Below the pieces are notes generated by a model. That model worked only from the letters and a program-made list of their open reading frames with translations, had not been told where the DNA came from and did no database searches. A stretch of DNA of 64,000 nt, taken from a phage. The stretch is from the sequence record PZ242158.1; one strand, written 5' to 3'. Below are positions 1-56,809 of the stretch, in pieces. Made by a program: the position numbers and the translations under genes. The first letter of the stretch is position 1, and every line of letters starts with the position of its first letter.

Positions 1-753
1 TACAAAGAACACTACCACAAAGGTGTTGTGTGGAGTCTATTTGACGGGTCTGGTGGTGCAGTTATTGACTGGGCGAAAGCTGGGTACCTGTGCCTGTGCT
101 TTAATGCAGAAGGTGCTGACCACGGCAGTTATGCAGAGGTGATAACCGATCATCCTAACATTCACTATGTGGATTATTGGATTGACCCATGGTTCCCTCA
201 GGAAACTTTTTGCATGTATCCAGCTCCAGACTTTATTCTTGCATTTCCTCCGTGCACGCATTTAGCGGTATCAGGTGCTGCACATTTTAAGAAAAAGCTG
301 GCTAAGGATCCTTTGATCCAAATTAATGCTGTAAAGGATGCTCGGGTTGCGGAAGAGTTGGGAGAGATTTACGATTGCCCGTGGCATGTAGAGAATCCTG
401 TAGGGGTTATGTCCACACTGTGGCGAAAACCTGATTACCGTTTTCATCCTTCGGATTATGGTGGGTATTTACCGGAGGATGATGTAAACCCCTGGTTTCC
501 TGAATTTATAGCTCCACGTGATGCCTATCCAAAAATAACTTGCGGCTGGATAGGCAATGGATTTATAATCCCGGCCACAAAACCTGTCCCGCAAATAGTT
601 GACGCGGTTAGCGGGTATTCCATGCAACACGCCAAGCTGGGTGGAAAGAGTGCAAGAACGAAGATGATCCGAAGCCTCACGCCACGTGGCTGGGCAAAAG
701 CCGTATTCTTAGCAAACGAGCCTGTAGTAAGGAGCAGAATTAATGGGAAGTAA
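1..753 (+). CDS. DNA (cytosine-5)-methyltransferase-like protein, 5'-truncated at window edge
   Basis: Frame open to position 1; motifs in C5-MTase order and spacing: SLFDGSGG (I), FPPC (IV, Gln replaced by Thr), VENPVG (VI). Short for a full C5-MTase. Confidence 0.45.
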   Translation, partial: YKEHYHKGVVWSLFDGSGGAVIDWAKAGYLCLCFNAEGADHGSYAEVITDHPNIHYVDYWIDPWFPQETFCMYPAPDFILAFPPCTHLAVSGAAHFKKKLAKDPLIQINAVKDARVAEELGEIYDCPWHVENPVGVMSTLWRKPDYRFHPSDYGGYLPEDDVNPWFPEFIAPRDAYPKITCGWIGNGFIIPATKPVPQIVDAVSGYSMQHAKLGGKSARTKMIRSLTPRGWAKAVFLANEPVVRSRINGK

Positions 754-2821
754 ATTTATGGCATCTGCATACAACCGTTTCGGTGAGCCAAACCCGAAAG
801 CAACTAAGTATAAAAGTGGGGGGAGTGTGAAACGAGACTATCGTGATGAAAAAGAGGTTGAAACTGTAGAGACTGTTTTAGAAAATACTAAAATCGTCCC
901 TGTCCCACAACAAAATATCGGTCTGATGGCTGCACAATATTTTGGTGTGCGATCAGCATTATCCCAAGAAGATGGTGTGACAGTCACTGCAACATATTTC
1001 CCATATTACGACCGCTACGGAAATCTGTCCGGTTTCAAAAAGCGTGACTGGACGATTCCTAAAGAGCAAAGAGGCCATTTCTCCGTTGTTGGCATAGTAA
1101 AGGCTAACTCTCAGATGTTTGGTCAAAAGCTGTGTGCATCTTCCAACAACCGTAAGCAGATTAACGTTTGTGAGGGAGAAGGTGATGTTATTGCAGCATG
1201 GCAGGCTGCATATCAGATACAAGTAAAAGGGATTCTCACCAACGCTAAAGCCCCGGCAAAGGTGAAACAGTGGGCTAAAGAGGTCCAGGACGGGATCGAT
1301 GCAGTTATCAACGGTGGCGATCTGGCAGGAAAACCATGCCTGCCTTTTGTTGGAATTAACTGTGGATGTGCAAACGCAGTAGATACTTTTGCAAACAATG
1401 AGAAGTTTATCCGTAGCTATGGAACAGTTGTGCTGGCAATGGATAACGATGCAGCTAACGAGGTAGAGAAGCAAAAACACGTCATTAAAGGTGTTGAGGC
1501 CACGCACAATATCGCAGCATTTTTGATGGCTGATAACGTTTACCACGTAGAATACCCTGGTGAAGTAAATGACCCTGACGGGGTAAAAGATATCCGTGAC
1601 ATGCTGAAGGCTAAAAAGCTGGAAGATATTGTCAACATGTTCCGGCACCCTGTTAAATATGTGCCTGATGCTGTGTCGGATTTAGAAGACTTCTCTATCG
1701 AGTCTTTGCGGAAAAAGACTTCCAACGGGGTAGATATCAGCGCAGAGTTCCCAAAACTGCAAAAAATGCTAAAAGGCTTGCACAAAGGGACACTCGTAAT
1801 GCTTACAGGGCCATCAGGGGGCGGTAAAACAACTGTAGCTAAAAAACTGGAACATTGTATTGCAAGATACCTAATGGACCCGACATGCCCGAAGGCTGAT
1901 GACTATGAAGAGGATGATCGTCTATGTATGATCCATCTTGAGGAGGACCCAGAGGAAGCAATTAACTCCTTGTATGCAAACCAGTTAGGGTTTGATGTTA
2001 AAGAGTTTGTTGAAGATCCTAGCCAGTTTTTAACTGATCAAGAACACGCAGAGATTCACCAATCATGGGCAAAAGCTGGAAAAATCAAAGTGTTCAAACA
2101 TTTCGGATCTATTCCGGTGGACGAGTTGATTACCAAGCTTAAGCAAATGGTTTGCCTGTACCATTGCCGTTATATTGTGCTGGATCACCTGTCCATGGTA
2201 ATTTCAGGGCTTAATGTTAAGGATGAGCGAAAAGAACTGGACATGGCTATGACTCAGCTGGCTGCGTTTTGTAAGCAGTTTAACGTGTTTATCTTGGTGA
2301 TCGCTCACCTCAAACGTACAGAGATTGTGCCTCCTAAGGACAAGGATGGTAACCCGTTACCTTTCTGGTATCCTGTGCGAAAAGAGAATTTGCGAGGATC
2401 GGCGGGGCTTGAACAGTTGAGTTGGGTAGTCATAGGTGTCGAGGCCGAAGAAATGGTGGATCGTTCTCGTGGACGTGTCCGTCTGGTAGGTCTTAAAAAC
2501 CGTCCAGCAAAAACTCTAGGTATTGCTGACACTTTGGTTATGGACCCGCACACAGGTAAGTTCCATGATGCCAGTAATTGGTACTGGGACAAAGAAATGC
2601 AAATGTTTACAGACGGAGAAGGTGGGGAGGTTGTTTGGAGACCTCAGGCTATGTTTGAGGATCAGGAGCATGCAGTTGTAGAAACACCTATGGGCAAGGT
2701 TGTGGCTGATAAGGTTGTAACTCCTACTGTTAAGCCTGTTGACACGCAGGAAGACCTCCAGTACGATGATCCATCCTCTGACCCGGTCCCTGGTTTTGAG
2801 GATGATGAAACGCCTTTTTAA
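743..2821 (+). CDS. DNA primase-helicase (T7 gp4-like, TOPRIM plus DnaB-family helicase)
   Basis: AGGAG RBS; TOPRIM-like CEGEGD and MDNDAAN motifs; Walker A GPSGGGKTT and Walker B IVLDHLS; acidic C-terminal tail ending DDETPF. Confidence 0.85.
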   Translation: MGSKFMASAYNRFGEPNPKATKYKSGGSVKRDYRDEKEVETVETVLENTKIVPVPQQNIGLMAAQYFGVRSALSQEDGVTVTATYFPYYDRYGNLSGFKKRDWTIPKEQRGHFSVVGIVKANSQMFGQKLCASSNNRKQINVCEGEGDVIAAWQAAYQIQVKGILTNAKAPAKVKQWAKEVQDGIDAVINGGDLAGKPCLPFVGINCGCANAVDTFANNEKFIRSYGTVVLAMDNDAANEVEKQKHVIKGVEATHNIAAFLMADNVYHVEYPGEVNDPDGVKDIRDMLKAKKLEDIVNMFRHPVKYVPDAVSDLEDFSIESLRKKTSNGVDISAEFPKLQKMLKGLHKGTLVMLTGPSGGGKTTVAKKLEHCIARYLMDPTCPKADDYEEDDRLCMIHLEEDPEEAINSLYANQLGFDVKEFVEDPSQFLTDQEHAEIHQSWAKAGKIKVFKHFGSIPVDELITKLKQMVCLYHCRYIVLDHLSMVISGLNVKDERKELDMAMTQLAAFCKQFNVFILVIAHLKRTEIVPPKDKDGNPLPFWYPVRKENLRGSAGLEQLSWVVIGVEAEEMVDRSRGRVRLVGLKNRPAKTLGIADTLVMDPHTGKFHDASNWYWDKEMQMFTDGEGGEVVWRPQAMFEDQEHAVVETPMGKVVADKVVTPTVKPVDTQEDLQYDDPSSDPVPGFEDDETPF

Positions 2822-2879
2822 TGTTTAACAAAGAGTGGGAGGGGTAGTACAACCGCCTCCCCTTTAAGGAGAACTGTAT

Positions 2880-5303
2880 ATGAGCATGTGGTCGTTCGAT
2901 TTTGAGTCATCCGGTTTGCTGGAAGACCCAGATCTTTATTATCACTGCGGCCTGTTTAAAGAGCTGAATAAGAACCGTTTTATGCTGTTCCTTCCTCTGA
3001 ATGACCGCACACACTACTCCGAGGAGGATATAGAGAAGGCCAAGAACTTTATTCTGGCAAAGAAAACTCTTTATAAGGATTTTGAAGTTCGCATAGCAGA
3101 TTTTTCGGAGTTGGAAGGTTGGCTTACAGGAAATTCCGACTGGTCACCAACAGCTTTGAACTGCCATAACTGCTACAGTTATGACTTTATGCTGATGGAG
3201 AGATTATCCGGTATTCATTTTGATATGTTCCGTGATCCTAAATGCATGGGGACTATCAACGACCACCAGGTTAACCTGTTTGATACGTTGGCTATGAGCC
3301 GAATCTTGTGGCCTGATCGCCCTTTACCAAAAGGTTGTCCGGACGCTGTATTCAACCCGGTTACTAAGAAAATGCAACCTGTTGGTCCTCACGGCCTTAT
3401 GGCATGGGGCTACGCCCTTGGTAACCAGAAAGTTCAAATTGATGACTGGCGCGATCTTCCGCTGTGGAAATATGTGGATCGTGTGTTCGAGGACGTTATC
3501 ATCCAGGAGTTGCTCTGGAAAGAGTTGGTAGCGGAATCAAAAGGTGTATTCTACGGCAAATCTGACATGCAGAACTTTATGTATGACCCTGCCAAAGAGA
3601 AGCCTAAAGGATTCAAGAAGATTACCTGGAAGAATGCATTACGCCGAGGCATGCTGCAGCATTTCCTGATGGAGCTGCAGGCTCGACAGGGTGTGTATTT
3701 CGACATAGATGGGGCTATTGCTTTACGTGACCGCTGCGATGCGTGGATGAAAGAGATCGCTGATCGTGTTGAACCACAACTTCCTTTAAAAGAGTTATCA
3801 ATGTCTCAGCGGCCTAAGTTCCCTGAAAAGCCGTTTAACCAGGATGGGACAATCTCCAATAATGGTTGGAAATGGTTAAAAGACAAGCTTGGCTACCCTG
3901 TGGACATGAGTGCTTTAGAATTCAAAGCTCCTCCTAAGCGAGCATTTACCTCCACAGGAGATGTCAGTAAGATGGGGATAAAATGGTGTGAAGAGATGGG
4001 CTGTAAAGACCCTGACAAGATGGCGGATTTCTTGAGGGGCTATATCAAGGGCACCTCCACACCACAACCTTTACCTAAAGAGCTAATGGATCAGGCAATA
4101 AGTGATCTACAGCAGAAGCGAATGCCTGACTGCAAGATACCTATGAAAATCAGTAATCAGGACGATATTAAGCGATACCTGATCAGTGCTGGTTGGCTTC
4201 CGACAATGTGGAGAACTAAGGATGTAACTAAAGACAGCAAGAAGAAAGCTCTACCTGATGCAGATGTTGATGCACGAGTGTATGCATATATGGACGAGCT
4301 TTTAGAGTCAGAGTATTGTGACCTAATTATCAACTTCTGGAACAAAACTGATGCTAAGTTCCAGACAACCGTGCACAAGTTCCGAAGCTTTCCTAACTCC
4401 GAAAGGATTAAAAAGGAAGTATTCGGGAAAATACGTAGAAAAGCTAGGGCACTTATTACTTCTCCGCAACTGAAAGATACGTTTGGACACCTATGCCCGA
4501 ATCTTGAAAAATTGAACGGAGAGATGGCTAAAGATATCGTCTTGTGGTTATCATTGCGAAACCGCAGATCGGTCCTTGATCCAATCAAGGAGGATAAGGT
4601 TGATACTGGTCTTCTTAATCACCCACGTTTGAAGATTGACCATAAGCTTCCTGCTAAAAGTTCTGGATTAACAAACACTTCCCGACAGAAACACAGTATT
4701 TGTGCAAACATGCCTAAACCATCTCCTAAAGTGGTTATGGGTAAAGAGATGCGTAGTCTGTGGGGTGTTCCTCCAGGATACTTTGAGATCGGTATTGACG
4801 GGTCCAACTTAGAGCAGCTTATCGGGGCTTGGGGTGCCTTTGAGTTCGACAACGGCCTGTATTACGATGTTGTAAGTAACGGGGACGCACACCAAAACAA
4901 TGCTGAGGCATATACAAAAGTAGCAGGTAGAGAGGTGTCTCGTAACGACGGTAAACCTATCACGTATGGGGTTATGTATGGGGCACAAAAAGATAAAGTT
5001 GCAGATATGCTGGACATCTCTCCAGAGTTGGGACAAAGGGTAATCGATGCACTCTGGGATGCCAACCCTGGTCTTAAGGGGCGTAAAGAAGATCTGGAGA
5101 AATTCTGGGAAGCAACGGGTAAGAAGTTTATCTACTCTTTTGATGGTCATGCTATCTGGACCCGATCTAAACACTCTTTACTTAATGCATACCAACAAAA
5201 TGGCGGCGCATCGTTGTGTGACTTAGTTGGGATACTCATGCACCATCAAATGGTGAAGCGTGGGTGGTACGATGAAGGTGTTCGTCGTATTATCTATTAC
5301 CAT
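2880..5303 (+). CDS. DNA polymerase, family A, exon 1
   Basis: AAGGAG RBS; exo motifs FDFESSG and HNCYSYD; motif B KPITYGVMYG; ORF stops one codon after the His where motif C (HDE) is expected. Confidence 0.8.
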
Positions 5304-6145
5304 AAATAACATTGTGGCTTCGTGCAGTGATGCACGTCGAAAACCTCTTTAATTGACGGGAAGGCTAAGTTGACTTTTACACCTAAACATGGTAAAAGCT
5401 CAATATGCTAATCCGCAGCGAAGACTAAAGGGGTGTAGTTAAAATGGCTAGATCAGTTGATTATCACGGATATACCGTGTTTGATGATGGAACAATACCT
5501 TTATCGAAACGTGATCATACAACAATGTTTTGTTTTGATAATGGTCGAGGTTACCTTTGCGTAACCATGTTCATCGAGGGGAAGCAGTGCACAAAAGGTG
5601 TCCACCACTTGGTTGCTGAATGCTTTGTATCAAACCCTGATCCTGAAAGGCTCACATGGGTGAACCATAAGGACGGAAACAAATACAACAATGCATACTG
5701 GAACCTTGAATGGACCACCCCTGGTGGAAATATCAAACACGCTTATGATAATGACCTCAGAGTAAGGCCAGTCGGTGAGTATAATGCCAACGCTGTACTG
5801 ACCGAGGATGAGGTAACGGAGATTTGCGAACTGTTACAGAGTGGTCTACGACAATGCGAGATTAGGGATCTTGGGTATCCTTATGAGACGGTCAGAGCCA
5901 TAAAGCAAAGAAGACAGTGGAAACATATCTCTAAAAACTACACCTGGTAGTAACGTTCAGAGACTATCGAAAGCATAGCGCCAACATAAATTGGTGCGAA
6001 GAAGCGAGTAGAGTAGGCCAGCAAGTGCGGTCGAAATGGGAGGTGCCTTGGTAACAAGGTAGTGAGATAGTCCGATCCATACAGGAAACTGTATGGCTGT
6101 GCACGTAATGGTGCGGGGTAGCTTAACGACCTACCTGAACTATTG
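5304..6145 (+). mobile_element. Group I intron in DNA polymerase gene, carrying an HNH homing endonuclease ORF
   Basis: 5' exon ends in U, intron ends in G; P-like AATTGACGGGAAGG (~5350), Q-like AATCCGCAGC (~5410), R-like GTTCAGAGACTA (~5955), S-like GAGATAGTCC (~6064); boundaries approximate. Confidence 0.7.
5444..5950 (+). CDS. HNH homing endonuclease (intron-encoded)
   Basis: HNH signature VNHKDGNKYNNAYWNLEW; C-terminal helix-turn-helix-like module; lies between Q and R elements of the intron. Confidence 0.8.
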   Translation: MARSVDYHGYTVFDDGTIPLSKRDHTTMFCFDNGRGYLCVTMFIEGKQCTKGVHHLVAECFVSNPDPERLTWVNHKDGNKYNNAYWNLEWTTPGGNIKHAYDNDLRVRPVGEYNANAVLTEDEVTEICELLQSGLRQCEIRDLGYPYETVRAIKQRRQWKHISKNYTW

Positions 6146-6499
6146 GATGAGTACCAACTTCAGGTCCCTGACACACCTAAGTATAAGACTGTGTACACCT
6201 TCGACACAATTGAAGAATTGGAAGCATTTAAGGCAGAGCAGGAGGCCAAACTTCATGTGTTCGACGGTCATAAGTACAAAAAGGCACGCAAGGATGAAAA
6301 CGGAAACGAAGTGGTTGACAGAGACGGAAACACGGTGTACGATCCTATCCTGAACGATGACGGAAAGCTTGAACTTATCTGGAGCCCTGTGGGTGAAATG
6401 GTGGTGCATTGCTTCTGGCAAGCTTCTAAAATGATGGGAGTCCCGTTCCAGATCACAGGTGAATACTTGTGTGGTCGTAACTGGGGTGATTGTCACTAA
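6146..6499 (+). CDS. DNA polymerase, family A, exon 2
   Basis: Begins DEYQLQV, completing motif C as YYH|DEY; ends GRNWGDCH, the canonical Pol A C-terminus; no RBS of its own; ORF-track start is a TTG at 6143. Confidence 0.7.
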   Translation, partial: DEYQLQVPDTPKYKTVYTFDTIEELEAFKAEQEAKLHVFDGHKYKKARKDENGNEVVDRDGNTVYDPILNDDGKLELIWSPVGEMVVHCFWQASKMMGVPFQITGEYLCGRNWGDCH

Positions 6500-6548
6500 T
6501 GTAAACTATCAACACATGGAAGTGTTGTTGAGCAAAGAGGAGACTTTT

Positions 6549-6866
6549 ATGGTAGTAGAACCAACAAAAACATTTACATCCATGACTATCCCTGTTATTA
6601 TGCAGGTGGAGTGTGTTCAGGTATCTCAAGTGTGGCCAGGCACTAAAATCCCAACAGGGCCTGATTTCTTTCAGGTTGGGAAAGTGTACAATGTCTGGAA
6701 AGCACCAGATTGTCACCCTTTCATTAAAGAGAAGGCACCAAATTGCTACCCTTTCATCAAAGATGACCGTGGAATGCTGTGGTATCTTGGAAATGACTTG
6801 ACACTGCACCTTGGGAATGCTATTATTGCAGTATTCAGACTTAACAAGAAGGAGACTGATCAATGA
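6549..6866 (+). CDS. hypothetical protein
   Basis: ORF-track ORF trimmed to Met with AAGAGGAG RBS; no recognisable domain. Confidence 0.5.
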   Translation: MVVEPTKTFTSMTIPVIMQVECVQVSQVWPGTKIPTGPDFFQVGKVYNVWKAPDCHPFIKEKAPNCYPFIKDDRGMLWYLGNDLTLHLGNAIIAVFRLNKKETDQ

Positions 6867-7090
6867 CGACTTTGGTTAAAGCTACCTTTGTAGAAGAAAA
6901 GATGACAGACCTGTCATTCTTTAAAGAAGGAAAGACCTACGAGGTTTATTACGATAAAGCTCGTGCAAACAAAATGATTAAAGACGAGGAAGGGGTTGCC
7001 TGGTATATCTCTCACCTGGCAAACGGTGAGTATCATATCTACGGAACCACTTTGCTTGCCAAGTTTGTAGTTGTTGAAGAGGACCTATGA
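6863..7090 (+). CDS. hypothetical protein
   Basis: ORF with start overlapping upstream stop (coupled); no recognisable domain. Confidence 0.5.
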   Translation: MTTLVKATFVEEKMTDLSFFKEGKTYEVYYDKARANKMIKDEEGVAWYISHLANGEYHIYGTTLLAKFVVVEEDL

Positions 7091-7281
7091 AAGTAAAGTA
7101 TCTGGCTGAGGGTATGAGTAGGTATTTCACCCTTGGTGAAGAATATTGGCCCTTTACAAGCAACGGCGATGTCTACGTGAAAGATAATTTCGGCACGCCG
7201 TGGTTTCTGCACCCTAATGGGCTGGGATACTCCATTTACTGCGGTGCAGTGAACAACACAACACTTGCAGAGTTTGTATAG
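7087..7281 (+). CDS. hypothetical protein
   Basis: Coupled ORF in same-strand array; no domain. Confidence 0.45.
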   Translation: MKVKYLAEGMSRYFTLGEEYWPFTSNGDVYVKDNFGTPWFLHPNGLGYSIYCGAVNNTTLAEFV

Positions 7282-7291
7282 AGGAGGTAGA

Positions 7292-7663
7292 ATGTTAGTA
7301 AAAGGTACCCACACAGTCAAACAACGTATTGAAGTTGAGATTGATGACTGCGAGCTGAAGCATATTTTACGGTCATGCTCCAACGTTTTGCTCCTTAGCA
7401 TTCTTCAGGAGCGAGCAGAGAACGAGTTCTTAAATGCACTGGCAGGCCGTCCTGGTGACTTCTGTGTGCGTAAGCGTGGTGACAACAAGTCATGGCTGTG
7501 GGAAATCGATGCCGACTGGGATTACCACAAAAATGAGGGTATAGATGAGCCTATTCGTGAATTGACAGACAAAGAGGTTCAGACGTACAATGAAGTTTGT
7601 CATTGGGCAACACGCCAACAAATCTACCTCGACCCTGTGTGGCTGATTGAAAATAGCCATTGA
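7292..7663 (+). CDS. hypothetical protein
   Basis: Start set at Met after GAGGAGG RBS (track ORF begins 7265); no domain. Confidence 0.5.
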   Translation: MLVKGTHTVKQRIEVEIDDCELKHILRSCSNVLLLSILQERAENEFLNALAGRPGDFCVRKRGDNKSWLWEIDADWDYHKNEGIDEPIRELTDKEVQTYNEVCHWATRQQIYLDPVWLIENSH

Positions 7664-7739
7664 CAAGAAGTAAGATTAGATATAAGATGCTTCACACAAA
7701 CAGAGCGTTGATTTTTAAATAACTAAGGAGACTGCCAAG

Positions 7740-7994
7740 ATGAAAATTACTTTGAAGCCAGAATGCGTTGCAAATGACCGAGCTTTTAAAGATTGCACAG
7801 TCGGTGCAATTTATGAAGCAGAGTTTTGTGAGAACCCTCTGGTAAAAGCCCTTCTGGAAGAAGGGGCCCCTTTATCACAAGAAGAGATTGATGAGCTGGA
7901 AAACTCAGCACAGTGCCTTACCTTTAAAGATGACGAAGGAGACTCTGTCTGGTGCACTGTTAATGAAGTAGTTTTTGTAAAACCTGAACATTAA
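7740..7994 (+). CDS. hypothetical protein (paralog pair with 8058..8330)
   Basis: AAGGAG RBS; shares KP-x-F-DCT and KDD-GD-C-T motifs with the next ORF. Confidence 0.55.
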   Translation: MKITLKPECVANDRAFKDCTVGAIYEAEFCENPLVKALLEEGAPLSQEEIDELENSAQCLTFKDDEGDSVWCTVNEVVFVKPEH

Positions 7995-7997
7995 TAC

Positions 7998-8026
7998 TTG
8001 ACAACAGTGATGGGGCCTAATATAAT
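7998..8026 (+). promoter_or_regulatory. sigma70-like promoter
   Basis: TTGACA, 17-bp spacer, TATAAT; upstream of the 8058 start. Confidence 0.5.
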
Positions 8027-26216: not shown

Positions 26217-26234
26217 TTTTTTAACTGAATTATC

Positions 26235-26259
26235 AAGGGGCTTAGGTCCCTTTCTTTTT
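26235..26259 (+). terminator. putative rho-independent terminator
   Basis: AAGGG...CCCTT stem followed by TCTTTTTG. Confidence 0.45.
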
Positions 26260-26859
26260 GTCTGCTCTTCCTCCCTACCATAAACGGCCCTACCTGGCAA
26301 GTGGAATAATTGACGAGCCATCAATCCCACACACTGTACAAATATACATGTAAAATAACTATTGCATAACCTTTCATTGTGTGGTAGCGGTGCTATTTTT
26401 ACCCGTTTTCCTTCCAAAATTGCACGTAATGCAGCTATTGCACAAAATTTAACCTGATGCGCATCTTCAATATCTTGTCAACAACTAAAAATCTTTATAA
26501 GTCATACACTTACACAAACCAAAAAGCGTGTTCTACGTGAAAAATCGAGTATAACTATAGCCGACAGATCTCAGAATTTACGTACGCTCACCATTCTATA
26601 GCCTGCTAAGTATTTATTCCGACCATAGAATAACAGAATAGTCAATACCTGCATAAAATAATTATTCGTTTAAATTGCATAACATAAATCAGCTCAGGTG
26701 TCAACATTTTTCGTAAACAGTCTGAAATTGTCACGGCAAGTTATCATAATCAGAGAAATCTTTAGTCGTCTAATGTTTACTGTACGTTACTATACTAACT
26801 GGAATCATTAGATGACTAATAGAAAGATAAGAAATAATTAACAATACAATTATTTTATC

Positions 26860-29520: not shown

Positions 29521-29641
29521 GAAATCTCCTCTGGAAATGAGAGTGTGAACAGGGTTTTATACGTTCCGATGCACAGGAATTATGCACGTTTGCCTCTTCA
29601 GGCCATGCTTTAGCATGAGGAACCTGTGTGGGCTCGGTGCT

Positions 29642-30161: not shown

Positions 30162-30189
30162 ATAAAGAAAAGGACGCCACAGAGCGTCC
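30162..30189 (-). terminator. rho-independent terminator
   Basis: GGACGC-TCTGTG-GCGTCC hairpin followed by TTTTCTTT on the minus strand. Confidence 0.6.
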
Positions 30190-30214
30190 TAGGTGTCTTA
30201 AATTTGATATTTTG

Positions 30215-39187: not shown

Positions 39188-39721
39188 CTACAAATGGTCG
39201 CTGAGGGTGTCAAGAAAATTATCCCGTTCTTTCTCAGAGTTTTCATGTGTGTAGCTGAAAAACATATCGAGAATAACCTTATTGATATATTCCAGCTCCT
39301 CTGTGTTCAGATGCTTAGCAGGATCTACAATGACATCCCAAATATCATACAGACCACACTCATGATACCCATAACGCCACTCAATTGTCAAGCTGAGCGG
39401 CAAATCTTTACCTTCACAAACAACCTTCCATCTACATATGTTGGTATCTGGTCGTACCTGTGCACGGTACACCTGCACAAAATCCAATTTGAATTTGAGG
39501 TACTCGTCATACAATTTAAGCACAAAGCTCTCGATTTGTGGAGACACTTTTGCAGCAAACTGTGCGTATTTGTACTTGCACTGAATGATCTTTCTGCGTT
39601 TTGCAGTTAAATTTTTTGCCGCCAGTTGTTCTTCAGTGTATCTCCACCTACGATCAACAAACGCAACAGGGTCTTTGTCCCCATAGAGGTCTTCCCAGTT
39701 AATCAGAAGCATACCTGTCAC
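39188..39721 (-). CDS. hypothetical protein
   Basis: 177-aa ORF; no domain. Confidence 0.55.
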   Translation of the reverse strand: MTGMLLINWEDLYGDKDPVAFVDRRWRYTEEQLAAKNLTAKRRKIIQCKYKYAQFAAKVSPQIESFVLKLYDEYLKFKLDFVQVYRAQVRPDTNICRWKVVCEGKDLPLSLTIEWRYGYHECGLYDIWDVIVDPAKHLNTEELEYINKVILDMFFSYTHENSEKERDNFLDTLSDHL

Positions 39722-40387: not shown

Positions 40388-40659
40388 AATCTAGGCTCCT
40401 TAAATGAATCTATGTAATCAATTAAATCCCAAGCATCGCGATGGGCTGTCAGAGGGTATACTTCTCCGAGAGGGATCATAGCAATAAGTCTATCAAAAAC
40501 CCAGTCTGGACGCAACATTTTATGGTGATATTCCCACTCACCTTCCACAGATTTTTTCTGAGTGATCAGGATCTCTGTGTAGTGTTTCGCCTGTCTTGAG
40601 TAGATTGAAAATGACTTGTACATAAATGACCCCCTCTTGTTGAAAACAACAATACACAA
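40384..40659 (-). CDS. hypothetical protein
   Basis: Coupled ORF. Confidence 0.5.
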   Translation of the reverse strand: MCIVVFNKRGSFMYKSFSIYSRQAKHYTEILITQKKSVEGEWEYHHKMLRPDWVFDRLIAMIPLGEVYPLTAHRDAWDLIDYIDSFKEPRL

Positions 40660-40974
40660 CTACCAGGTTACTGTCAAGTAGGCAACCGTATTATTTTTCT
40701 CTGGGGAGATGCCAACAACATCTACCTGCAGACCTCCTGCCCTTAAATCTCCAACAATGTGCGGGAAGTAATCTGAGAGATGCGAGGGCAGATTTATCGA
40801 AAATCCGCACCCCAGAAAGCCTGCTAACGCTTTATTTTGTATCTCCCCTACAATCGCATCATAAATGGAGTTAAGCTCGTCAGGGAGCGTTACAGGGCGT
40901 TTTAGCGCTAGCTGGTGTAATTTGTCCTTAGCACTCATTTTCATTTCAGGTCTACCTCTGGGGGTGCCAACCAC
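40660..40974 (-). CDS. hypothetical protein
   Basis: ORF in array. Confidence 0.5.
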   Translation of the reverse strand: MVGTPRGRPEMKMSAKDKLHQLALKRPVTLPDELNSIYDAIVGEIQNKALAGFLGCGFSINLPSHLSDYFPHIVGDLRAGGLQVDVVGISPEKNNTVAYLTVTW

Positions 40975-41474
40975 ATAAACGGCGGCAAGTCTAAACGGTT
41001 TTTCTTATCCCACACAAAATATGCATATGCTTGCCCGTCAGTTCTGCCGTTTGATTGAAATGATGGACGCTTAGATATTGTGATCACAGTAGTAGGTGCA
41101 TTATCAAGCCACCATTCAAATCTGGCTTTGCTTTCCAGAAAATTAAGACGCAAAAGCATAATAACTACGTCAGCATCTTTCAACGCCTTGTCTACAAACT
41201 CACGAGCCAGGCTGTATGGTGGGTTGGTGATAATACAGTCAACATGGTTGTATTCTGTATTCAGATAGTCAACACCTTCTTGTATTTCTCCCCATGCAGA
41301 TCCTAACGGCATACGGGAGTAGAACACACCTGAGGCACTATTCCTGCAAGGCTCTAAGTAGGTCCAGTCTTCTGGGAACGGAATAAGGTCATACAGCCCT
41401 TCTGCACACCACTCCGGTGTCACATACTCATCGTAGGCGTTACGTTGTTCATCAGGTTTTCTAGCACAAGTCAT
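40941..41474 (-). CDS. putative N6-adenine methyltransferase (short, gamma-class-like)
   Basis: YVTPEW (motif X-like), LEPCRNSASGVF (motif I-like), CIITNPPYS (motif IV NPPY); only 177 aa. Confidence 0.55.
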   Translation of the reverse strand: MTCARKPDEQRNAYDEYVTPEWCAEGLYDLIPFPEDWTYLEPCRNSASGVFYSRMPLGSAWGEIQEGVDYLNTEYNHVDCIITNPPYSLAREFVDKALKDADVVIMLLRLNFLESKARFEWWLDNAPTTVITISKRPSFQSNGRTDGQAYAYFVWDKKNRLDLPPFMWLAPPEVDLK

Positions 41475-41490
41475 GCAAATCTCCAGATCA

Positions 41491-41513
41491 TAAAAGCCCT
41501 CCGAAGAGGGCTT
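41491..41513 (-). terminator. intergenic hairpin, putative terminator
   Basis: AAGCCCTC-TTCG-GAGGGCTT hairpin downstream of the ClpP-like stop. Confidence 0.45.
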
Positions 41514-41525
41514 TAGAATTAATGT

Positions 41526-42575
41526 TTAAGCTTCTTCGACAATTCCTGCACCCAGGATTTTTTCATTGAGCTCTTTTGCTGTTTTAATAATATTGTCCAC
41601 AAGACGCTTGCGAGTCTTATCTTTCACCTTAACCTCTTCACCGCCGTTCAGAGTAGTCTTCAATTGAGACAGAATATCCTGAAGTTCAACGACAGAGAAT
41701 CTCTGCAGATCTTCTGAAGTAATCTCACCCAGGGCAATTCGGACGGTCTCGCCACTTTCCATCTGCAGATTCAGGAACACAGTGTGAACATCACCTTTCG
41801 AACCACCCGCTTTTGCAGATTCAACAGCATGAACTAACTCATCTAAAGATGTGCACTGATGAATCTCCGGAAGACCTGCTTCACCTAACACGCCTTCTTC
41901 ATCACCTTTTGCCAGAAGCTTTTTCGGTTTTTGTCCGTTCTGGATGCGTTGTATGTTGCCTTCATCCAGAATAATAGCTCCAGTGCGTGCTGCCAACTCT
42001 TCTCCGTCCAACCACACTTCGCCACCAGCTGTGATGGATGCGATCTCATCTTCTGTCAGCACCCCACCGTAGTATTTTTCGATCAGGTGTTCAAAACGTT
42101 TTTTCCAGTAGCTGACCTGAGTATTCATGTTAACACCGTTACCATAAGTGCCACCTTGATAGTAGTGGAACATAAATTCTGTGTCCGGAGCCACAGTGCG
42201 TTCTTTGCAACCAAGCCATAAGATTGTTCCAGCAGAGCAGCACATCCCTTCAGCATGTGCAACAACGCTTGCCTGAGACTCGCGGAATGCCTGCAGATAG
42301 GCCATTGCAATGTGCACGCAACCACCAGGGCTATTGATGATCACACGTATGCTTTCTTCCGGCTGAGCCATACGGATCGTCTGCAGACGAGACATATGAT
42401 CCTGCAGGTCCTCCAAATCGTCGATATAAAGAACGTGGTCAACAACAGGTGTTGGGTAGCTGTATGTTTCCATGATACCGCCCGGCATACCAAACATTTT
42501 ATTACTCATAGGTTCGAAACCGTTCTGTTTTTCTTTCATGCCGTGTACCATGGTGCTGCGAGGTGTTAAATTCAT
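41526..42575 (-). CDS. ClpP-like serine peptidase (S14 family) with C-terminal extension
   Basis: IINSPGGCVHIAMAYLQAF...VAHAEGMCCSAGTILWL...FMFHYYQG matches the ClpP fold with Ser and His positions; ~130-aa charged C-terminal extension. Confidence 0.7.
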   Translation of the reverse strand: MNLTPRSTMVHGMKEKQNGFEPMSNKMFGMPGGIMETYSYPTPVVDHVLYIDDLEDLQDHMSRLQTIRMAQPEESIRVIINSPGGCVHIAMAYLQAFRESQASVVAHAEGMCCSAGTILWLGCKERTVAPDTEFMFHYYQGGTYGNGVNMNTQVSYWKKRFEHLIEKYYGGVLTEDEIASITAGGEVWLDGEELAARTGAIILDEGNIQRIQNGQKPKKLLAKGDEEGVLGEAGLPEIHQCTSLDELVHAVESAKAGGSKGDVHTVFLNLQMESGETVRIALGEITSEDLQRFSVVELQDILSQLKTTLNGGEEVKVKDKTRKRLVDNIIKTAKELNEKILGAGIVEEA

Positions 42576-52964: not shown

Positions 52965-53948
52965 TTAACCTTTCACGAAGTGGTTATTAAGCAGTTGTCT
53001 GTGCTGAACCCACCCACAAAAGTTGGCAGACCAGAATTTACCATCACGGTCTTGATGGGTTACACCTTCCTGCCAAGTACTGATGTCTTGTGTGATTTCA
53101 CATGAAGACAGGTAGTAGTTTAAACGTTCCATTGCGTTATCGTGATCCATAGGTGTTGCCTGGTGCTCGTAAGGGCTTGCATGAATACGATCCCCACCAA
53201 TCAATTTTTTAGCCACACTATCTGCCTTTTCAAACGTGCTGTCAATATTTCGATAAGATACTTGTGCACAGCAACTAGCACTGATAGACAGAGCTTCTTT
53301 AGTATCGAGAATGCAGAGCTTTCCTTCTGTGTCACGTACAGCGTAGTTAAACTCTCCGTCCAAATAAACGTGCTCTACATATGGGGTGTGCCATTGACCC
53401 GGTTTAAGGATTTCAGGAGTGCTATTCTCAAGAGCCTCCCACATACAATTAGCTAACATCTGAATCGTAGGATCCGCATCGTGCCAGCAACGGAGGTGGA
53501 AAAAATTATTCCACTCGGTGCTTGTTACAACTGTTTTCATGCGCTGGAACGGCTCCACTAAGCGGTTACATACTTGCTTATGGTAACCAGCAAGGGCGAA
53601 CTTCTCTGCATGCCAAGCGGCGTTTTTTGCAGCTTCTTTCCAAAACTCTTCAGGAGTTAGCTCCATGTCAGTGTACTCTACACGGATCTTTTGATCGTGT
53701 TCCCCACCATCTTCCATTCCTCGCTTATTTACACCGAAGCGAACTGGCATTGCCGGATTCTCCACAATCTGTTGCAGCATCTTGCCGACAGGTACTGCAC
53801 GGGAAGACATGGCGTTTCGGCTGAACACTCGGTGCGTCATAAGCTCTGAGTGAATAATTCGAGGATACTCTAGTTCAAAAGTGGTGATACGCTTACCTTT
53901 CTCGGAAATGCTGTCAGCAATAATCTTTGCAGTGCACAGTTTTAGCAT
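52965..53948 (-). CDS. thyX: flavin-dependent thymidylate synthase
   Basis: ThyX signature THRVFSRNAMSSRAVP (RHR...S.R-type motif). Confidence 0.85.
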   Translation of the reverse strand: MLKLCTAKIIADSISEKGKRITTFELEYPRIIHSELMTHRVFSRNAMSSRAVPVGKMLQQIVENPAMPVRFGVNKRGMEDGGEHDQKIRVEYTDMELTPEEFWKEAAKNAAWHAEKFALAGYHKQVCNRLVEPFQRMKTVVTSTEWNNFFHLRCWHDADPTIQMLANCMWEALENSTPEILKPGQWHTPYVEHVYLDGEFNYAVRDTEGKLCILDTKEALSISASCCAQVSYRNIDSTFEKADSVAKKLIGGDRIHASPYEHQATPMDHDNAMERLNYYLSSCEITQDISTWQEGVTHQDRDGKFWSANFCGWVQHRQLLNNHFVKG

Positions 53949-54149: not shown

Positions 54150-54743
54150 TCAAATACCTTCTAAAAATTTTCCTATTTTATACCAGCTATTAGCGGTATA
54201 GTCAACACTGACCTTTAACTCCTCGAATTGCTCATAAGGCGTATCTTTTAGGATTTTAATAACTTCAGGTCGTGAAGCGAATTGGTTCAGGTATTCATGC
54301 CTGTCGTCAATTATAACATCTACAGCCACATTCCCTTTGAAATGTGTGGCGTAGAAGCCGTGGCCCTGGGTGTGATCGTCCAGATCCATAAAATCACCGG
54401 TCCAACGCTTTAAGAACCTTGATTTAGATGCAAGGTGACCTTTCTTGCATACCGAGATAAATGCAAGCTTGTGACCACGAGCCACCAAATCTTTCATAAC
54501 CTCAATAGCCCCCTCTTCAGGCTTAAGGAAGTCGTAGAGGAACGGATCACTCCAGAAATCAAAAGGTCCTATGATGTTTTCTTTGGGGCGATCAGGCCAA
54601 TACTTTGACAGATCGTAATACATCAGCCCATTAGAAGGTTTAACGACTGTCTTACTGGCTGGACCATACAAACGCTCCAACCACTCCCACCATGCTGTTC
54701 CTGAATCTACCAGTGTCAAATCTACATCAATTCCGATTAACAT
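54150..54743 (-). CDS. HAD-superfamily phosphatase, putative 5'-deoxynucleotidase
   Basis: N-terminal DxDxT motif (IGIDVDLTLVD); nucleotide-metabolism context. Confidence 0.55.
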   Translation of the reverse strand: MLIGIDVDLTLVDSGTAWWEWLERLYGPASKTVVKPSNGLMYYDLSKYWPDRPKENIIGPFDFWSDPFLYDFLKPEEGAIEVMKDLVARGHKLAFISVCKKGHLASKSRFLKRWTGDFMDLDDHTQGHGFYATHFKGNVAVDVIIDDRHEYLNQFASRPEVIKILKDTPYEQFEELKVSVDYTANSWYKIGKFLEGI

Positions 54744-55354: not shown

Positions 55355-55554
55355 AAACCTCCGTGGTATTCTTCAACTGCATCAATAATACTTTTACACT
55401 TATCTACCAGCTCGTTAGCCACTACAGCATCGTCTTCCCAAACAGCCTCTTCAATCTGATCAAGCAATGATCGCATCTTATCCATCATTTCTGGGATAAA
55501 GTTTTCTGAAAAGCTGTCTGGAACTGTTAACTTTAGTGTCATTGCGGTCTCCAA
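55351..55554 (-). CDS. hypothetical protein
   Basis: Coupled ORF. Confidence 0.45.
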   Translation of the reverse strand: METAMTLKLTVPDSFSENFIPEMMDKMRSLLDQIEEAVWEDDAVVANELVDKCKSIIDAVEEYHGGF

Positions 55555-55569
55555 TCATACTATGCGTTA

Positions 55570-56028
55570 TTAGAAGTTTGTTTTTACACGTCCCTTTTCA
55601 TCTACCTCATTGTTAGCTAAAAGCGTTACAAAGTCTGTGAAACGGACATGAAGAACTCTTTTCTTGTCAAGGTATCCTAAAGCCACCCCTGAAAAATTTA
55701 GCATCAAGGGGGCTAAAGAAGCTCTGGCACTGAAATGCTGTTGTTCTACTCTTCCTACACCCTTAGTGTAGGATGGGTTAAGATTGTAAGTTCTGAATCC
55801 CAGTTTTGTTGGAGCTTTAGAATTAAAAACAACTTTATAGCGTTTCTTACTCAACTTATGCTCCAGGATAAGAATTCCCTTATCACCCTTGATAAGTTGA
55901 AAATCTGTAAAGTGCTCTTTTAAGACGAAAGGTAGTGCCAGTCCCATAGCCTGGCCTCTTTGTACCGCTGTCTCACCAAAAGCTTTTGCATCAGTAAGTT
56001 CTTTGGTCAAGTCTATGCTTTTGATCAT
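55570..56028 (-). CDS. hypothetical protein
   Basis: ORF; no domain. Confidence 0.45.
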   Translation of the reverse strand: MIKSIDLTKELTDAKAFGETAVQRGQAMGLALPFVLKEHFTDFQLIKGDKGILILEHKLSKKRYKVVFNSKAPTKLGFRTYNLNPSYTKGVGRVEQQHFSARASLAPLMLNFSGVALGYLDKKRVLHVRFTDFVTLLANNEVDEKGRVKTNF

Positions 56029-56809
56029 ACCGGGTCTCCAAAATGTATTGTAGTTCTTTCTTGCCTATACTCTTCATTCCAGCAGTCTTACCTGCTTCTT
56101 CTTGAAAAGAAGAATAGCATTCAGCAAACACTCTGTCAACACCGTCAACTAAAGATTTTATGAAATATGTAGATTCTTCAGATTTTGGATCATCATCACC
56201 CAATACTTTTCCAGCGTTATACCCAACACGTCTTACACAGAAGTCGTAGTCATCCGGTGTGCTAAAAGAAAATAACTTATTCTCTCCAATATCTACAGGA
56301 TCCCTATTGCACGCCTTTTTCTCCCAAATTTGGAAAACACATGGCACGTCATAAGGTTTGCCATTAAGTAAAAACGAGTTCTTAGGGCACCTTTCGCTGT
56401 AGACAAGGTGCATAGACATGTCCAGTTTGTTTGAAAAAAATATTTTTTCAAATGTCCGTGGCAAGATGAAGGCTATAGCCCCGCCAAGCTCTAGCAATGA
56501 TGCACAATGGTTAAAGAATTTGCAAGCTAAAGATGAATTCTTACCAAACGGTGGGTTACCTATGAAGACATCTGCCTTGGGGTGCACCTCCAAGAAGTTT
56601 GCCTGAATGCACGGTGTTGGTCCTTCAAATTCAGGATCTGGTACTAAATCGTACGACAGTATCTCTGAAAATAGTTTTGAAAAAGAACCTCTTCCAGCAG
56701 AAGGCTCAACGTATGCACAATTCCCATACTTATCTTTTACTTTACCAACAAGATATTCTGCATACTCAGGGTTTGTGTAATATTTGTCGTTGGACTCTTT
56801 CTTACTCAA
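55991..56809 (-). CDS. N6-adenine DNA methyltransferase (gamma-class)
   Basis: YYTNPEYAEYL (motif X), YVEPSAGRGSF (motif I), FIGNPPFG (motif IV); TTG start after GGAGG. Confidence 0.7.
   Translation of the reverse strand: MSKKESNDKYYTNPEYAEYLVGKVKDKYGNCAYVEPSAGRGSFSKLFSEILSYDLVPDPEFEGPTPCIQANFLEVHPKADVFIGNPPFGKNSSLACKFFNHCASLLELGGAIAFILPRTFEKIFFSNKLDMSMHLVYSERCPKNSFLLNGKPYDVPCVFQIWEKKACNRDPVDIGENKLFSFSTPDDYDFCVRRVGYNAGKVLGDDDPKSEESTYFIKSLVDGVDRVFAECYSSFQEEAGKTAGMKSIGKKELQYILETRYDQKHRLDQRTY

What the first reader, a model, noticed from the sequence alone, without database searches (positions are those of the whole stretch)
1..56809. Three DNA methyltransferases of two chemistries
A C5-MTase-like protein (motifs I, IV, VI; PC-T instead of PCQ) lies at the window start, with a 177-aa and a 272-aa gamma-class N6-adenine MTase (NPPY/NPPF with motif X-I upstream) on the other arm. 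Multiple orphan MTases suggest layered anti-restriction. The Gln to Thr change in the C5 motif and the small size of two enzymes raise the possibility of altered specificity or non-canonical function.
Basis: partly seen in the sequence, partly recalled or inferred. Interest (0 to 1): 0.4.

Follow-up and report, generated by a model that had tools for sequence, protein, structure and literature searches.

The report
Three orphan phage DNA methyltransferases, mostly known
This stretch of an rV5-like E. coli phage carries three stand-alone DNA methyltransferase genes that are already annotated in relatives; published experiments show one of them is a GATC adenine methylase and that a homologue of the cytosine one makes 5-methylcytosine, so the finding is real but ordinary.

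Summary
The window is a Vequintavirus (rV5-like) genome arm. Its closest record is Bas51/WalterGehring, at 96.8% over the first 25 kb. All three genes exist as described.

- **A (1-753 +, first 4 codons cut off).** A 254-aa mini C5-cytosine MTase with PPCT, ENP and a DNMT3-like fold. It is 54% identical to the KarlJaspers/K42 "Dcm-like" enzyme. That enzyme also carries PPCT, was shown by LC-MS to make 5mC, and triggers retron Ec86.
- **B (40941-41474 -).** It is 177/178 identical to the Bas51 enzyme. Published nanopore data show that enzyme methylates GATC: 1405 of 1406 adenines are methylated, and the signal is lost in the T83P mutant. It also triggers retrons Asa1 and Squ1.
- **C (55991-56809 -).** A compact gamma-class NPPF enzyme with no curated family. 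Bacterial relatives sit in apparent restriction-modification (R-M) operons. It is the best, but unproven, candidate for the GTAC m6A seen in Bas51. The rival candidate is a fourth, Mod-like MTase encoded just upstream of the window in most relatives.

The Gln-to-Thr change and the small sizes are normal for these families and occur in active enzymes, so they do not point to odd chemistry. "Layered anti-restriction" is at best narrow, because these phages are exceptionally sensitive to restriction-modification (RM) systems. Low interest; already known.

The parts
1..753 (+). Gene A: mini C5-cytosine DNA methyltransferase ('Dcm-like'). The full protein is 254 aa; the window lacks the first 4 codons. 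Key residues in full-length numbering: motif I LFDGSGG 17-23, catalytic Cys89 in FPPCT, Glu135 in ENP, Lys182, C-terminal RSLTPRGWAKAV.
   Evidence: P0001 100% identical, 254 aa; phrog_757, E 4e-86; C89, E135, K182 invariant; pLDDT 88.7; the top Foldseek PDB hits listed are DNMT3A/3B catalytic domains or the prophage CP-933R MTase 3g7u; 7 of 28 homologues pass PF00145; 54% identity to KarlJaspers bas06_0055, E 1e-86.
40941..41474 (-). Gene B: 177-aa mini gamma-type N6-adenine DNA methyltransferase, GATC-specific (Dam-like orphan). It also triggers retrons Asa1 and Squ1. Motif X is at T19-P20, motif III at D69, D79 precedes motif IV, and T83-N84-P85-P86-Y87 is motif IV.
   Evidence: phrog_799, E 8e-67; only sub-threshold Pfam/NCBIfam hits; 177/178 identical to Bas51 bas51_0176; D69, D79 and T83 identical; escape mutants D69G, D79G, T83P; methylated GATC adenines 1405 in wild type versus 35 in T83P; D69 and TNPP invariant; family size 160-227 aa.
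55991..56809 (-). Gene C: 272-aa compact gamma-class (TaqI/Eco57I-like) N6-adenine methyltransferase with NPPF at 85-88. Its target has not been shown; it is the best candidate for the GTAC m6A mark.
   Evidence: phrog_5172 'unknown function', E 9e-129; no curated family reached; invariant D8, T12, EPS-G-G, GNPPFG; pLDDT 92.5; the catalytic domain matches M.TaqI, M.BseCI, CamA and HsdM, and also TrmN/Trm5; 20 of 80 bacterial relatives have a conserved 218-aa ORF 3 bp downstream; GTAC about 99% methylated in Bas51, independent of B.
39188..39712 (-). Neighbour, not a methyltransferase: a 174-aa 'putative glycosidase', about 1.2 kb downstream of gene B on the same strand. Its Bas51 orthologue is a second retron-escape locus (R87*).
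   Evidence: no Pfam hit. Counting from the ATG at 39712, residue 87 is an Arg.

Best explanation
The window comes from an rV5-like Vequintavirus. It encodes three orphan DNA methyltransferases that lie among replication and nucleotide-metabolism genes and mark the phage's own newly replicated DNA.

B is a minimal gamma-type adenine MTase with no separate target-recognition domain. It methylates essentially every GATC on the phage genome. Host Dam cannot keep up with phage replication and contributes little (shown in the near-identical Bas51 enzyme).

A is a minimal C5-cytosine MTase with a DNMT3-like reduced target-recognition region. It uses Cys89 as nucleophile and Glu135 as the protonating residue to make 5-methylcytosine. 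This is inferred from a 54%-identical enzyme with proven 5mC activity. Its target motif in this phage is unknown and may be CCWGG-like.

C is a compact TaqI-like adenine MTase. It most likely writes the GTAC m6A mark seen on Bas51 DNA (inferred).

The marks give narrow protection against restriction enzymes that cut unmethylated GATC, GTAC or the 5mC site. They do not give general immunity. They also have a cost, because bacterial retrons use exactly these methylation activities as infection sensors.
For: Identity of the phage: (96.8% to Bas51 over 25 kb).

Gene B:
- 177/178 identical to Bas51 bas51_0176.
- PMC12548924 reports escape mutations D69G, D79G and T83P. These fall on residues that are invariant (D69, T83) or nearly invariant (D79) in the family.
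- Its S4 Table lists 1405 methylated GATC adenines in wild type against 35 in T83P.
- I count 703 GATC sites, which is 1406 adenines, in MZ501111.

Gene A:
- phrog_757, E 4e-86.
- C5-MTase fold.
- C89, E135 and K182 invariant.
- PF00145 is passed by 7 of 28 homologues.
- 54% identity (E 1e-86) to KarlJaspers bas06_0055. The C82/E128/K175 of the K42 enzyme line up with C89/E135/K182, and both proteins have PPCT.
- The K42 enzyme raises 5mC on msDNA by LC-MS, and a catalytic mutant does not.

Gene C:
- Gamma-class motifs in the right order.
- The fold matches M.TaqI, M.BseCI, CamA and HsdM.
- 20 of 80 bacterial relatives have a conserved downstream partner ORF 3 bp away, which is the layout of a type II R-M operon.
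- Bas51 has 258 GTAC sites, which is 516 adenines. Of these, 509 (wild type) and 511 (T83P) are methylated. From established knowledge of its methylome, E. coli K-12 has no GTAC methylase.
Against: - None of the three proteins reaches the curated cut-off of any Pfam or NCBIfam family.
- Nothing was measured on this exact phage.
- A's target is unknown. Its putative recognition loop (GYSxQHxKLGGKS) differs from that of the K42 subfamily (DNPGWAKTGGKS), and K176 of K42 is Ile183 here.
- Even for K42, CCWGG was assumed by analogy with host Dcm rather than mapped.
- The link between C and GTAC is not established. Bas51 has another adenine MTase candidate, the Mod-like bas51_0070 (PF01555, E 4e-42), which could write GTAC instead.
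- C's catalytic domain also resembles tRNA MTases.
- GTAC is not specially depleted around the bacterial relatives that have the partner ORF.
Confidence: 0.8

Rival explanations
1. Gene C is not the GTAC enzyme. The GTAC m6A mark is written by the fourth, Mod-like beta-class MTase encoded just upstream of the window. C would then have another DNA target hidden in the 'other' methylated adenines, act on RNA, or be inactive.
For: Bas51 carries bas51_0070 (441 aa). It hits PF01555 at E 4e-42, has a DPPF motif typical of adenine enzymes, and is related to type III Mod proteins. It is conserved at 97-100% in 88 Vequintavirus records. The paper quantified only two motifs, although there are three adenine-MTase candidates. 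C's top structural hit is the tRNA MTase TrmN, and some homologues are labelled 'predicted RNA methylase'.
Against: Type III Mod-like enzymes typically recognise asymmetric 5-6 bp sites, not 4-bp palindromes (established knowledge). The 349 'other' methylated adenines that persist in T83P are roughly what a 5-bp asymmetric motif would give in 141 kb, so they could be the Mod-like enzyme's product. C has the layout of known 4-bp gamma-class enzymes such as M.TaqI, and of M.HpyAXII, a gamma-class GTAC m6A enzyme. Its relatives sit in R-M-like operons.
Confidence: 0.3
2. One reading: the Gln-to-Thr change in motif IV and the very small size of A and B indicate altered chemistry or a non-methyltransferase role. 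Examples would be a different transferred group, an RNA or nucleotide substrate, or a decoy.
For: A and B reach no curated family threshold. A's region between motifs VIII and IX is very short, and B has no recognisable target-recognition domain. B is toxic when over-expressed, and about 227 'other' adenine sites disappear with T83P, which hints at relaxed specificity.
Against: The K42/KarlJaspers enzyme has the same PPCT and a similar size, and it makes 5mC. DNMT3B has PCN at this position. B's near-identical orthologue gives stoichiometric GATC m6A. Both sizes are the norm for their families.
Confidence: 0.07
3. The MTases serve mainly non-defensive roles, such as timing of replication or packaging, gene regulation, or avoiding MutH cleavage at unmethylated GATC, rather than anti-restriction.
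For: The phages remain highly RM-sensitive. Enterobacterial hosts are Dam+, so GATC-cutting enzymes blocked by Dam methylation could exist in them, but none was tested. The genes sit in replication and nucleotide-metabolism modules. Bas51 T83P phages plate as well as wild type on a host without a retron.
Against: There is no direct evidence for any regulatory role. Methylation of about 100% of all sites genome-wide looks like blanket protection rather than regulation at specific sites. GTAC is under-represented in the genome (observed/expected 0.59-0.65), which is compatible with past selection by GTAC-cutting enzymes.
Confidence: 0.2

Closest known systems
Bas51 (Escherichia phage WalterGehring) N6-adenine methyltransferase bas51_0176 / QXV85686.1, characterised in PMC12548924
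   Same: 177 of 178 aligned positions are identical to gene B (the single difference is V174A), with the same gene neighbourhood. D69, D79 and T83 are identical. It is shown to write GATC m6A and to trigger retrons Asa1 and Squ1.
   Different: Only one residue differs. Nothing has been measured on the window's own phage.
Phage K42 / KarlJaspers (Bas06) 'Dcm-like' C5 methyltransferase, the trigger of retron Ec86/Eco1 (bioRxiv 10.1101/2023.08.16.553469)
   Same: Same family (phrog_757). 54% identity over the full length, the same PPCT motif IV, the same Cys-Glu-Lys spacing, and a similar size (236 vs 254 aa). The fold resembles the DNMT3A catalytic domain.
   Different: The putative recognition loop differs (GYSxQH here, DNPGW there). 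K176 is Ile183 here. The host phage is a Drexlerviridae siphovirus. The target motif of neither enzyme has been mapped directly.
M.TaqI, and M.HpyAXII (a gamma-class GTAC m6A enzyme of H. pylori, PMC2588503)
   Same: Gene C has the N-terminal gamma-class catalytic domain (motifs X, I, IV in order, with the motif IV Asn near residue 85-87), followed by a small C-terminal domain. Its relatives sit next to a putative restriction enzyme.
   Different: C is shorter (272 aa vs 331 for M.HpyAXII; M.TaqI chains in the PDB are about 380-395 residues). It has no significant sequence match to any solved structure. Only the catalytic domain superposes (TM about 0.4). Its specificity is unproven.
Small phage 'Dam' family, Pfam PF05869 / TIGR01712 (phage N-6-adenine-methyltransferase)
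   Same: Gene B is also a mini adenine MTase of about 170 aa with NPPY and no separate recognition domain. One distant homologue of B (P0323) carries a PF05869 hit.
   Different: B itself scores 19.2 bits against a cut-off of 28.1 for PF05869, and 16.1 against 97 for TIGR01712. It is therefore a separate, small family (312 proteins found).

Membership tests
C5-cytosine DNA methyltransferases (Dcm/DNMT superfamily, Pfam PF00145) - gene A | Motif I, the FxGxG AdoMet-binding loop at the end of the first strand | tested here: met
   LFDGSGG at residues 17-23. G20 and S21 are nearly invariant in the 28 aligned homologues. The HMM alignment to DNMT3B covers this motif.
C5-cytosine DNA methyltransferases (Dcm/DNMT superfamily, Pfam PF00145) - gene A | Motif IV, Pro-Cys with the catalytic cysteine nucleophile | tested here: met
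   P87, P88 and C89 are invariant in 28 homologues. The next residue is Thr (Asp in 3 of them), not Gln. C89 aligns with the mutated catalytic C82 of the K42 enzyme.
C5-cytosine DNA methyltransferases (Dcm/DNMT superfamily, Pfam PF00145) - gene A | Motif VI, ENV, with the glutamate that protonates N3 of cytosine | tested here: met
   E135, N136 and P137 are invariant. E135 aligns with E128 of K42.
C5-cytosine DNA methyltransferases (Dcm/DNMT superfamily, Pfam PF00145) - gene A | Score above the curated PF00145 cut-off | tested here: inconclusive
   The window protein gives no PF00145 hit at E<=1. Seven of 28 homologues (53-57% identical) pass, with 24.7-28.5 bits for the three members scored individually against a cut-off of 22, over motifs I-IV only.
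C5-cytosine DNA methyltransferases (Dcm/DNMT superfamily, Pfam PF00145) - gene A | C5-MTase three-dimensional fold | tested here: met
   AlphaFold model with pLDDT 88.7 and pTM 0.89. All 50 best Foldseek PDB hits listed are DNMT3A/3B catalytic domains or the prophage CP-933R MTase 3g7u (E from 1.6e-5, TM about 0.55).
C5-cytosine DNA methyltransferases (Dcm/DNMT superfamily, Pfam PF00145) - gene A | Formation of 5-methylcytosine in DNA | not testable with these tools
   Shown by LC-MS only for the 54%-identical K42 enzyme. Bas51 nanopore data were called for 6mA only.
Gamma-class N6-adenine DNA methyltransferases - gene B | Motif order X, then I, then IV ((D/N)PP(Y/F)), with catalytic NPPY | tested here: met
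   T19-P20 (motif X), E41-P42 with the G-rich loop (motif I), D69, and N84-P85-P86-Y87. These are invariant or nearly invariant in 20 homologues.
Gamma-class N6-adenine DNA methyltransferases - gene B | Score above the cut-off of a curated adenine-MTase family (PF05869 Dam, PF13651 EcoRI_methylase, TIGR01712) | tested here: not met
   19.2 bits against 28.1, 20.1 against 26.4, and 16.1 against 97. B belongs to phrog_799 (E 8e-67). It therefore works like these enzymes but is not a member of those curated families.
Gamma-class N6-adenine DNA methyltransferases - gene B | N6-methyladenine formed at a defined DNA site | not testable with these tools
   Published for the orthologue identical at 177 of 178 positions: GATC, with 1405 sites in wild type and 35 in T83P. 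My site count of 1406 adenines matches.
Gamma-class (TaqI/Eco57I-like) N6-adenine DNA methyltransferases - gene C | Motif order X, then I, then IV, with (N/D)PP(Y/F) | tested here: met
   D8, Y11-T12 (motif X), E35-P36-S37-G39-G41-F43 (motif I), D54 (motif II) and G84-N85-P86-P87-F88-G89 are invariant in 34 homologues.
Gamma-class (TaqI/Eco57I-like) N6-adenine DNA methyltransferases - gene C | Score above the curated cut-off of PF07669 (Eco57I) or another adenine-MTase family | tested here: not met
   15.7 bits against 25.3 for Eco57I, and no NCBIfam hit. C belongs to phrog_5172, labelled 'unknown function'. Some homologues carry a precomputed PF26055 hit, a model not in the local Pfam copy.
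Gamma-class (TaqI/Eco57I-like) N6-adenine DNA methyltransferases - gene C | DNA rather than RNA as substrate | tested here: inconclusive
   The fold matches both DNA adenine MTases (TaqI, BseCI, CamA, HsdM) and tRNA MTases (TrmN, Trm5) at similar E-values. In favour of DNA: 20 of 80 bacterial relatives have a conserved 218-aa partner ORF 3 bp downstream with a D...SxK motif, which is an R-M-like layout. The partner has no Pfam or PDB match.
Gamma-class (TaqI/Eco57I-like) N6-adenine DNA methyltransferases - gene C | GTAC specificity | not testable with these tools
   GTAC is about 99% m6A in Bas51 and independent of B. However, a second candidate enzyme exists.

The most novel reading that the evidence does not exclude
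Gene C is the founding characterisable member of an uncurated family of compact gamma-class adenine methyltransferases (phrog_5172, 'unknown function') and is the enzyme that writes GTAC m6A on Vequintavirus DNA. Its bacterial relatives, paired with a conserved 218-aa protein that matches no known family, would then define a previously undescribed type II restriction-modification system. Separately, gene A may recognise a target other than CCWGG, because its putative recognition loop differs from that of the only tested homologue.
Probability: 0.4. Interest if true: 0.3.

Novelty: already known. Interest (0 to 1): 0.2.

Why it matters
Little changes. The genes were already annotated as a Dcm-like MTase and two N6-adenine MTases in the BASEL phage records. 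One of them has been characterised experimentally, both as a GATC methylase and as a retron trigger. A homologue of the cytosine enzyme has been shown to make 5mC and to trigger retron Ec86/Eco1.

The useful residue is practical:
- A published nanopore data set already shows a second, unassigned GTAC m6A activity and about 350 unassigned methylated adenines in the closest relative.
- Two uncharacterised MTases could account for them: the 272-aa enzyme here and a Mod-like enzyme just outside the window.
- No 5mC call has been made for these phages.
- For phage-therapy or engineering work, these MTases matter more as triggers of abortive-infection systems than as shields against restriction.

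Tried and rejected
- **Curated family libraries.** Pfam and NCBIfam scans of the three proteins gave nothing above the curated cut-offs. Only PHROGs placed them.
- **Solved structures by sequence.** Protein C gave only a chance hit. The A-family profile gave only marginal DNMT3B hits at E about 0.5.
- **Assigning GTAC to C through genome context.** One bacterial locus was uninformative. A scan of 80 bacterial loci found a conserved partner ORF in 20, but it has no Pfam or PDB match. Palindrome depletion around those loci did not single out GTAC: 0.78 with the partner and 0.79 without. The specificity could therefore not be inferred.
- **Literature on methylation or restriction digests of rV5-like DNA.** The rV5 genome paper does not mention methylation or restriction enzymes. 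Searches for 'Vequintavirus + methylation + nanopore' and 'rV5-like + RsaI' returned nothing.
- **Non-specific Hia5-type adenine MTases as a model for B.** Rejected. These are alpha-class, Dam-related DPPY enzymes with a different architecture.
- **KarlJaspers Dam-like gene and gene C as relatives of B.** There is no meaningful similarity beyond NPPY/NPPF.
- **AFDB50 fold search.** It was not available. The viral fold library gave only unnamed or generic MTase hits for C.
- **Hypermodification.** Considered and rejected. The thymidylate synthase is an ordinary ThyX, and the phages are cut by EcoRI and EcoRV in vivo.

Full report
**What the window is.** The 64-kb window has two gene arms: + strand up to about 26 kb, and - strand from about 30 kb. 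Megablast places it in the rV5-like genus Vequintavirus. Over the first 8 kb, 113 records cover at least 80% of the query, at 90-99% identity. Over the first 25 kb the best record is Escherichia phage WalterGehring (BASEL Bas51, MZ501111), at 96.8% identity and 99% coverage. The window is collinear with the annotated BASEL genomes AlexBoehm and WalterGehring.

**Checking the observation.** All three ORFs exist.
- **Gene A** occupies 1..753 (+). The window cuts off its first 4 codons. The full 254-aa protein (P0001) is in the protein collection at 100% identity.
- **Gene B** is 40941..41474 (-), 177 aa.
- **Gene C** is 55991..56809 (-), 272 aa, with a TTG start.

In the BASEL records the three genes are annotated 'Dcm-like C5 cytosine methyltransferase' and, twice, 'putative N6 adenine methyltransferase'. 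None has a restriction enzyme next to it. The neighbours are primase/helicase and DNA polymerase (A), ClpP-like protease and PhoH (B), and a DnaQ-like exonuclease, ThyX and ribonucleotide reductases (C).

One qualification applies to the count. 88 Vequintavirus records, including Bas51, carry a fourth MTase, a 441-aa Mod-like enzyme (PF01555, E 4e-42). In Bas51 it ends about 1.3 kb upstream of gene A, which is just outside this window.

**Gene B is a known, active GATC methylase.** A 2025 PLoS Biology paper (PMC12548924) selected Bas51 mutants that escape retrons Asa1 and Squ1.
[quoted passage not shown] D69G, D79G and T83P were rebuilt and each abolished defence.
- Residues 69, 79 and 83 of the window protein are D, D and T. 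The window protein matches Bas51 bas51_0176 at 177 of 178 aligned positions. In an alignment of 20 homologues, D69 and T83-N84-P85-P86 are invariant and D79 nearly so.
- The paper's native nanopore sequencing found GATC m6A. Its S4 Table lists 1405 methylated GATC adenines in wild type and 35 in T83P.
- I counted 703 GATC sites in MZ501111, which is 1406 adenines. The phage enzyme therefore methylates essentially every site, and host Dam contributes little.
- The family is small (312 proteins found) and uniformly 160-227 aa. So 177 aa is the normal size of an active enzyme, not a truncation.
- B stays below the cut-offs of PF05869, PF13651 and TIGR01712. It works like the small phage Dam enzymes but is not a member of those curated families.
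- The enzyme was toxic when over-expressed, and about 227 non-GATC, non-GTAC adenine calls disappear with T83P. I read this as some relaxed specificity or neighbour miscalls; this is inference.

**Gene A is a member of a very large phage family of mini C5-MTases.**
- It hits phrog_757 at E 4e-86.
- More than 7,000 related proteins of about 225-260 aa exist in the protein collection. tblastn finds the gene in 1,504 phage records (Escherichia 577, Klebsiella 521, Salmonella 107).
- In 28 aligned homologues P87, P88, C89, E135, N136, P137 and K182 are invariant. The residue after the Cys is Thr in most and Asp in three. PC-T is therefore the family rule.
- The window protein has no PF00145 hit, but 7 of 28 homologues pass the curated cut-off.
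- The AlphaFold model (pLDDT 88.7) finds only C5-MTases among its listed top PDB matches. These are the DNMT3A/3B catalytic domains, which also have a reduced recognition region and PCN in motif IV, and the prophage CP-933R MTase.

The decisive comparison is with a preprint on retron Ec86/Eco1 (bioRxiv 10.1101/2023.08.16.553469). It identified a 711-bp 'Dcm-like' gene of phage K42 as the retron trigger; K42 is 95.4% identical to KarlJaspers/Bas06. Expressing it raised 5mC on msDNA by LC-MS, and a C82A/E128A/K175A/K176A mutant did not. The KarlJaspers gene (bas06_0055, 711 bp) is 54% identical to gene A over its whole length (E 1e-86). Its C82, E128 and K175 align with C89, E135 and K182 here, and it too reads PPCT.

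So the Gln-to-Thr change occurs in an enzyme that makes ordinary 5mC. Two points remain open.
- The target of the window enzyme. Its loop GYSxQHxKLGGKS differs from DNPGWAKTGGKS in the K42 subfamily, and K176 is Ile here.
- The true target even of the K42 enzyme. CCWGG was assumed by analogy with host Dcm rather than mapped.

**Gene C is the least characterised.**
- It hits phrog_5172 ('unknown function', E 9e-129) and no curated family.
- 793 relatives were found, mostly environmental, of about 250-290 aa. They share invariant D8, T12, EPS-G-G-F, D54 and GNPPFG.
- The model (pLDDT 92.5) superposes through its catalytic domain on M.TaqI, M.BseCI, CamA and HsdM. It superposes equally well on the tRNA MTases TrmN and Trm5. 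The fold alone therefore does not fix the substrate.
- A scan of one genome per bacterial species returned 80 loci. In 20 of them a conserved ORF of about 218 aa starts 3 bp after the MTase on the same strand. Its conserved blocks are HGKxFE, FDI...PTSIK and LNPKIDSKxQRRLQCS, and it has no Pfam or PDB match. I read this as a type II R-M layout, which favours DNA as the substrate (inference).

**The GTAC mark.** The retron paper quantified a second motif. There were 509 methylated GTAC adenines in wild type and 511 in the B-null T83P phage. Bas51 has 258 GTAC sites, which is 516 adenines. GTAC is therefore about 99% methylated, independently of B. E. coli K-12 has no GTAC methylase (established knowledge of its methylome), so the activity is phage-encoded.

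The candidates are gene C's orthologue (270 of 273 positions identical) and the Mod-like bas51_0070. I favour C, at roughly 55-60%, for three reasons.
- Compact gamma-class enzymes typically read 4-bp palindromes. M.TaqI is one, and M.HpyAXII is a gamma-class GTAC m6A enzyme.
- Type III Mod-like enzymes usually read asymmetric 5-6 bp sites.
- The 349 'other' adenines that persist in T83P are about what such an asymmetric site would give in 141 kb.

This is inference. Palindrome depletion around the bacterial relatives did not help.

**Function and the 'layered anti-restriction' idea.** The marks can protect only against enzymes that cut the matching unmethylated sites. The BASEL study states that Vequintavirinae are 'exceptionally susceptible' to RM systems. 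The raw data for Bas51 show EOP of about 1e-4 on EcoRI and no plaques on EcoRV or EcoPI. GTAC is under-represented in the window and in Bas51 (observed/expected 0.65 and 0.59), whereas GATC is not (1.05 and 0.99). The same activities are sensed by retrons: B by Asa1 and Squ1, and the A family by Ec86/Eco1. In some hosts the MTases are therefore a liability. Non-defensive roles, such as evading mismatch repair, packaging or regulation, cannot be excluded.

**Verdict.** The genes are annotated in public records. B is experimentally characterised in a near-identical orthologue, and A's family has a biochemically validated member. What remains open is C's target, A's target, and the role of the fourth, Mod-like enzyme outside the window.

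Noticed in passing
window 27283-27716 and 27843-28276 (within the gene-poor stretch 26217-30214): An exact 434-bp direct repeat, with copies 126 bp apart. It lies in a roughly 4-kb stretch without ORFs of 100 aa or more, where the + and - gene arms converge and GC skew changes sign. The stretch has no Rfam family and no tRNA. The equivalent stretch is unannotated in BASEL records.
   Followed up: partly
window 39188-39712 (-): A 174-aa 'putative glycosidase' with no Pfam hit, about 1.2 kb downstream of gene B. In Bas51 a premature stop at R87 of its orthologue turned up in 4 of 8 retron escapers and on its own abolishes Retron-Asa1 defence (PMC12548924). Its function, and its link to the GATC methylase, are unexplained.
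   Followed up: partly
L005 14456-15781 (Bas51 MZ501111 64456-65781), ending about 1.3 kb upstream of the Bas51 counterpart of gene A (window start): A fourth methyltransferase: 441 aa, PF01555, DPPF motif, related to type III Mod proteins. It is present in 88 Vequintavirus records but absent from some, for example AlexBoehm. It may or may not be in this phage, because the window starts too late to tell.
   Followed up: partly
L050 5779-6432 and 19 other bacterial loci (L011, L039, L041-L043, L049, L051, L061, L063, L066, L068-L071, L073, L075, L085 and others): A conserved ORF of about 218 aa lies immediately downstream of bacterial relatives of gene C. Its conserved blocks are HGKxFE, FDI..PTSIK and LNPKIDSKxQRRLQCS, and it matches nothing in Pfam or the PDB. 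It is a candidate new type II restriction endonuclease family.
   Followed up: partly
GenBank records MG065635-MG065690, seen as hits to window 1-8000, 40500-42000 and 55500-57300: About 20 records named 'Campylobacter phage', with host given as C. jejuni, are 97-100% identical to E. coli rV5-like phages. They are unannotated and probably mislabelled or contaminant assemblies.
   Followed up: no
window 2880-5309 and 5444-5950 (+): The DNA polymerase gene is split. In relatives it is annotated as a two-piece join with a homing endonuclease ORF inside, and further homing endonucleases vary between relatives. This accounts for most length differences between the window and Bas51.
   Followed up: no
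window 52965-53948 (-): The annotated thymidylate synthase is the flavin-dependent ThyX type (PF02511, E 1.7e-9). It sits next to an NT5C-like deoxynucleotidase (54150-54743). There is no sign of a hydroxymethylase or of base hypermodification.
   Followed up: yes
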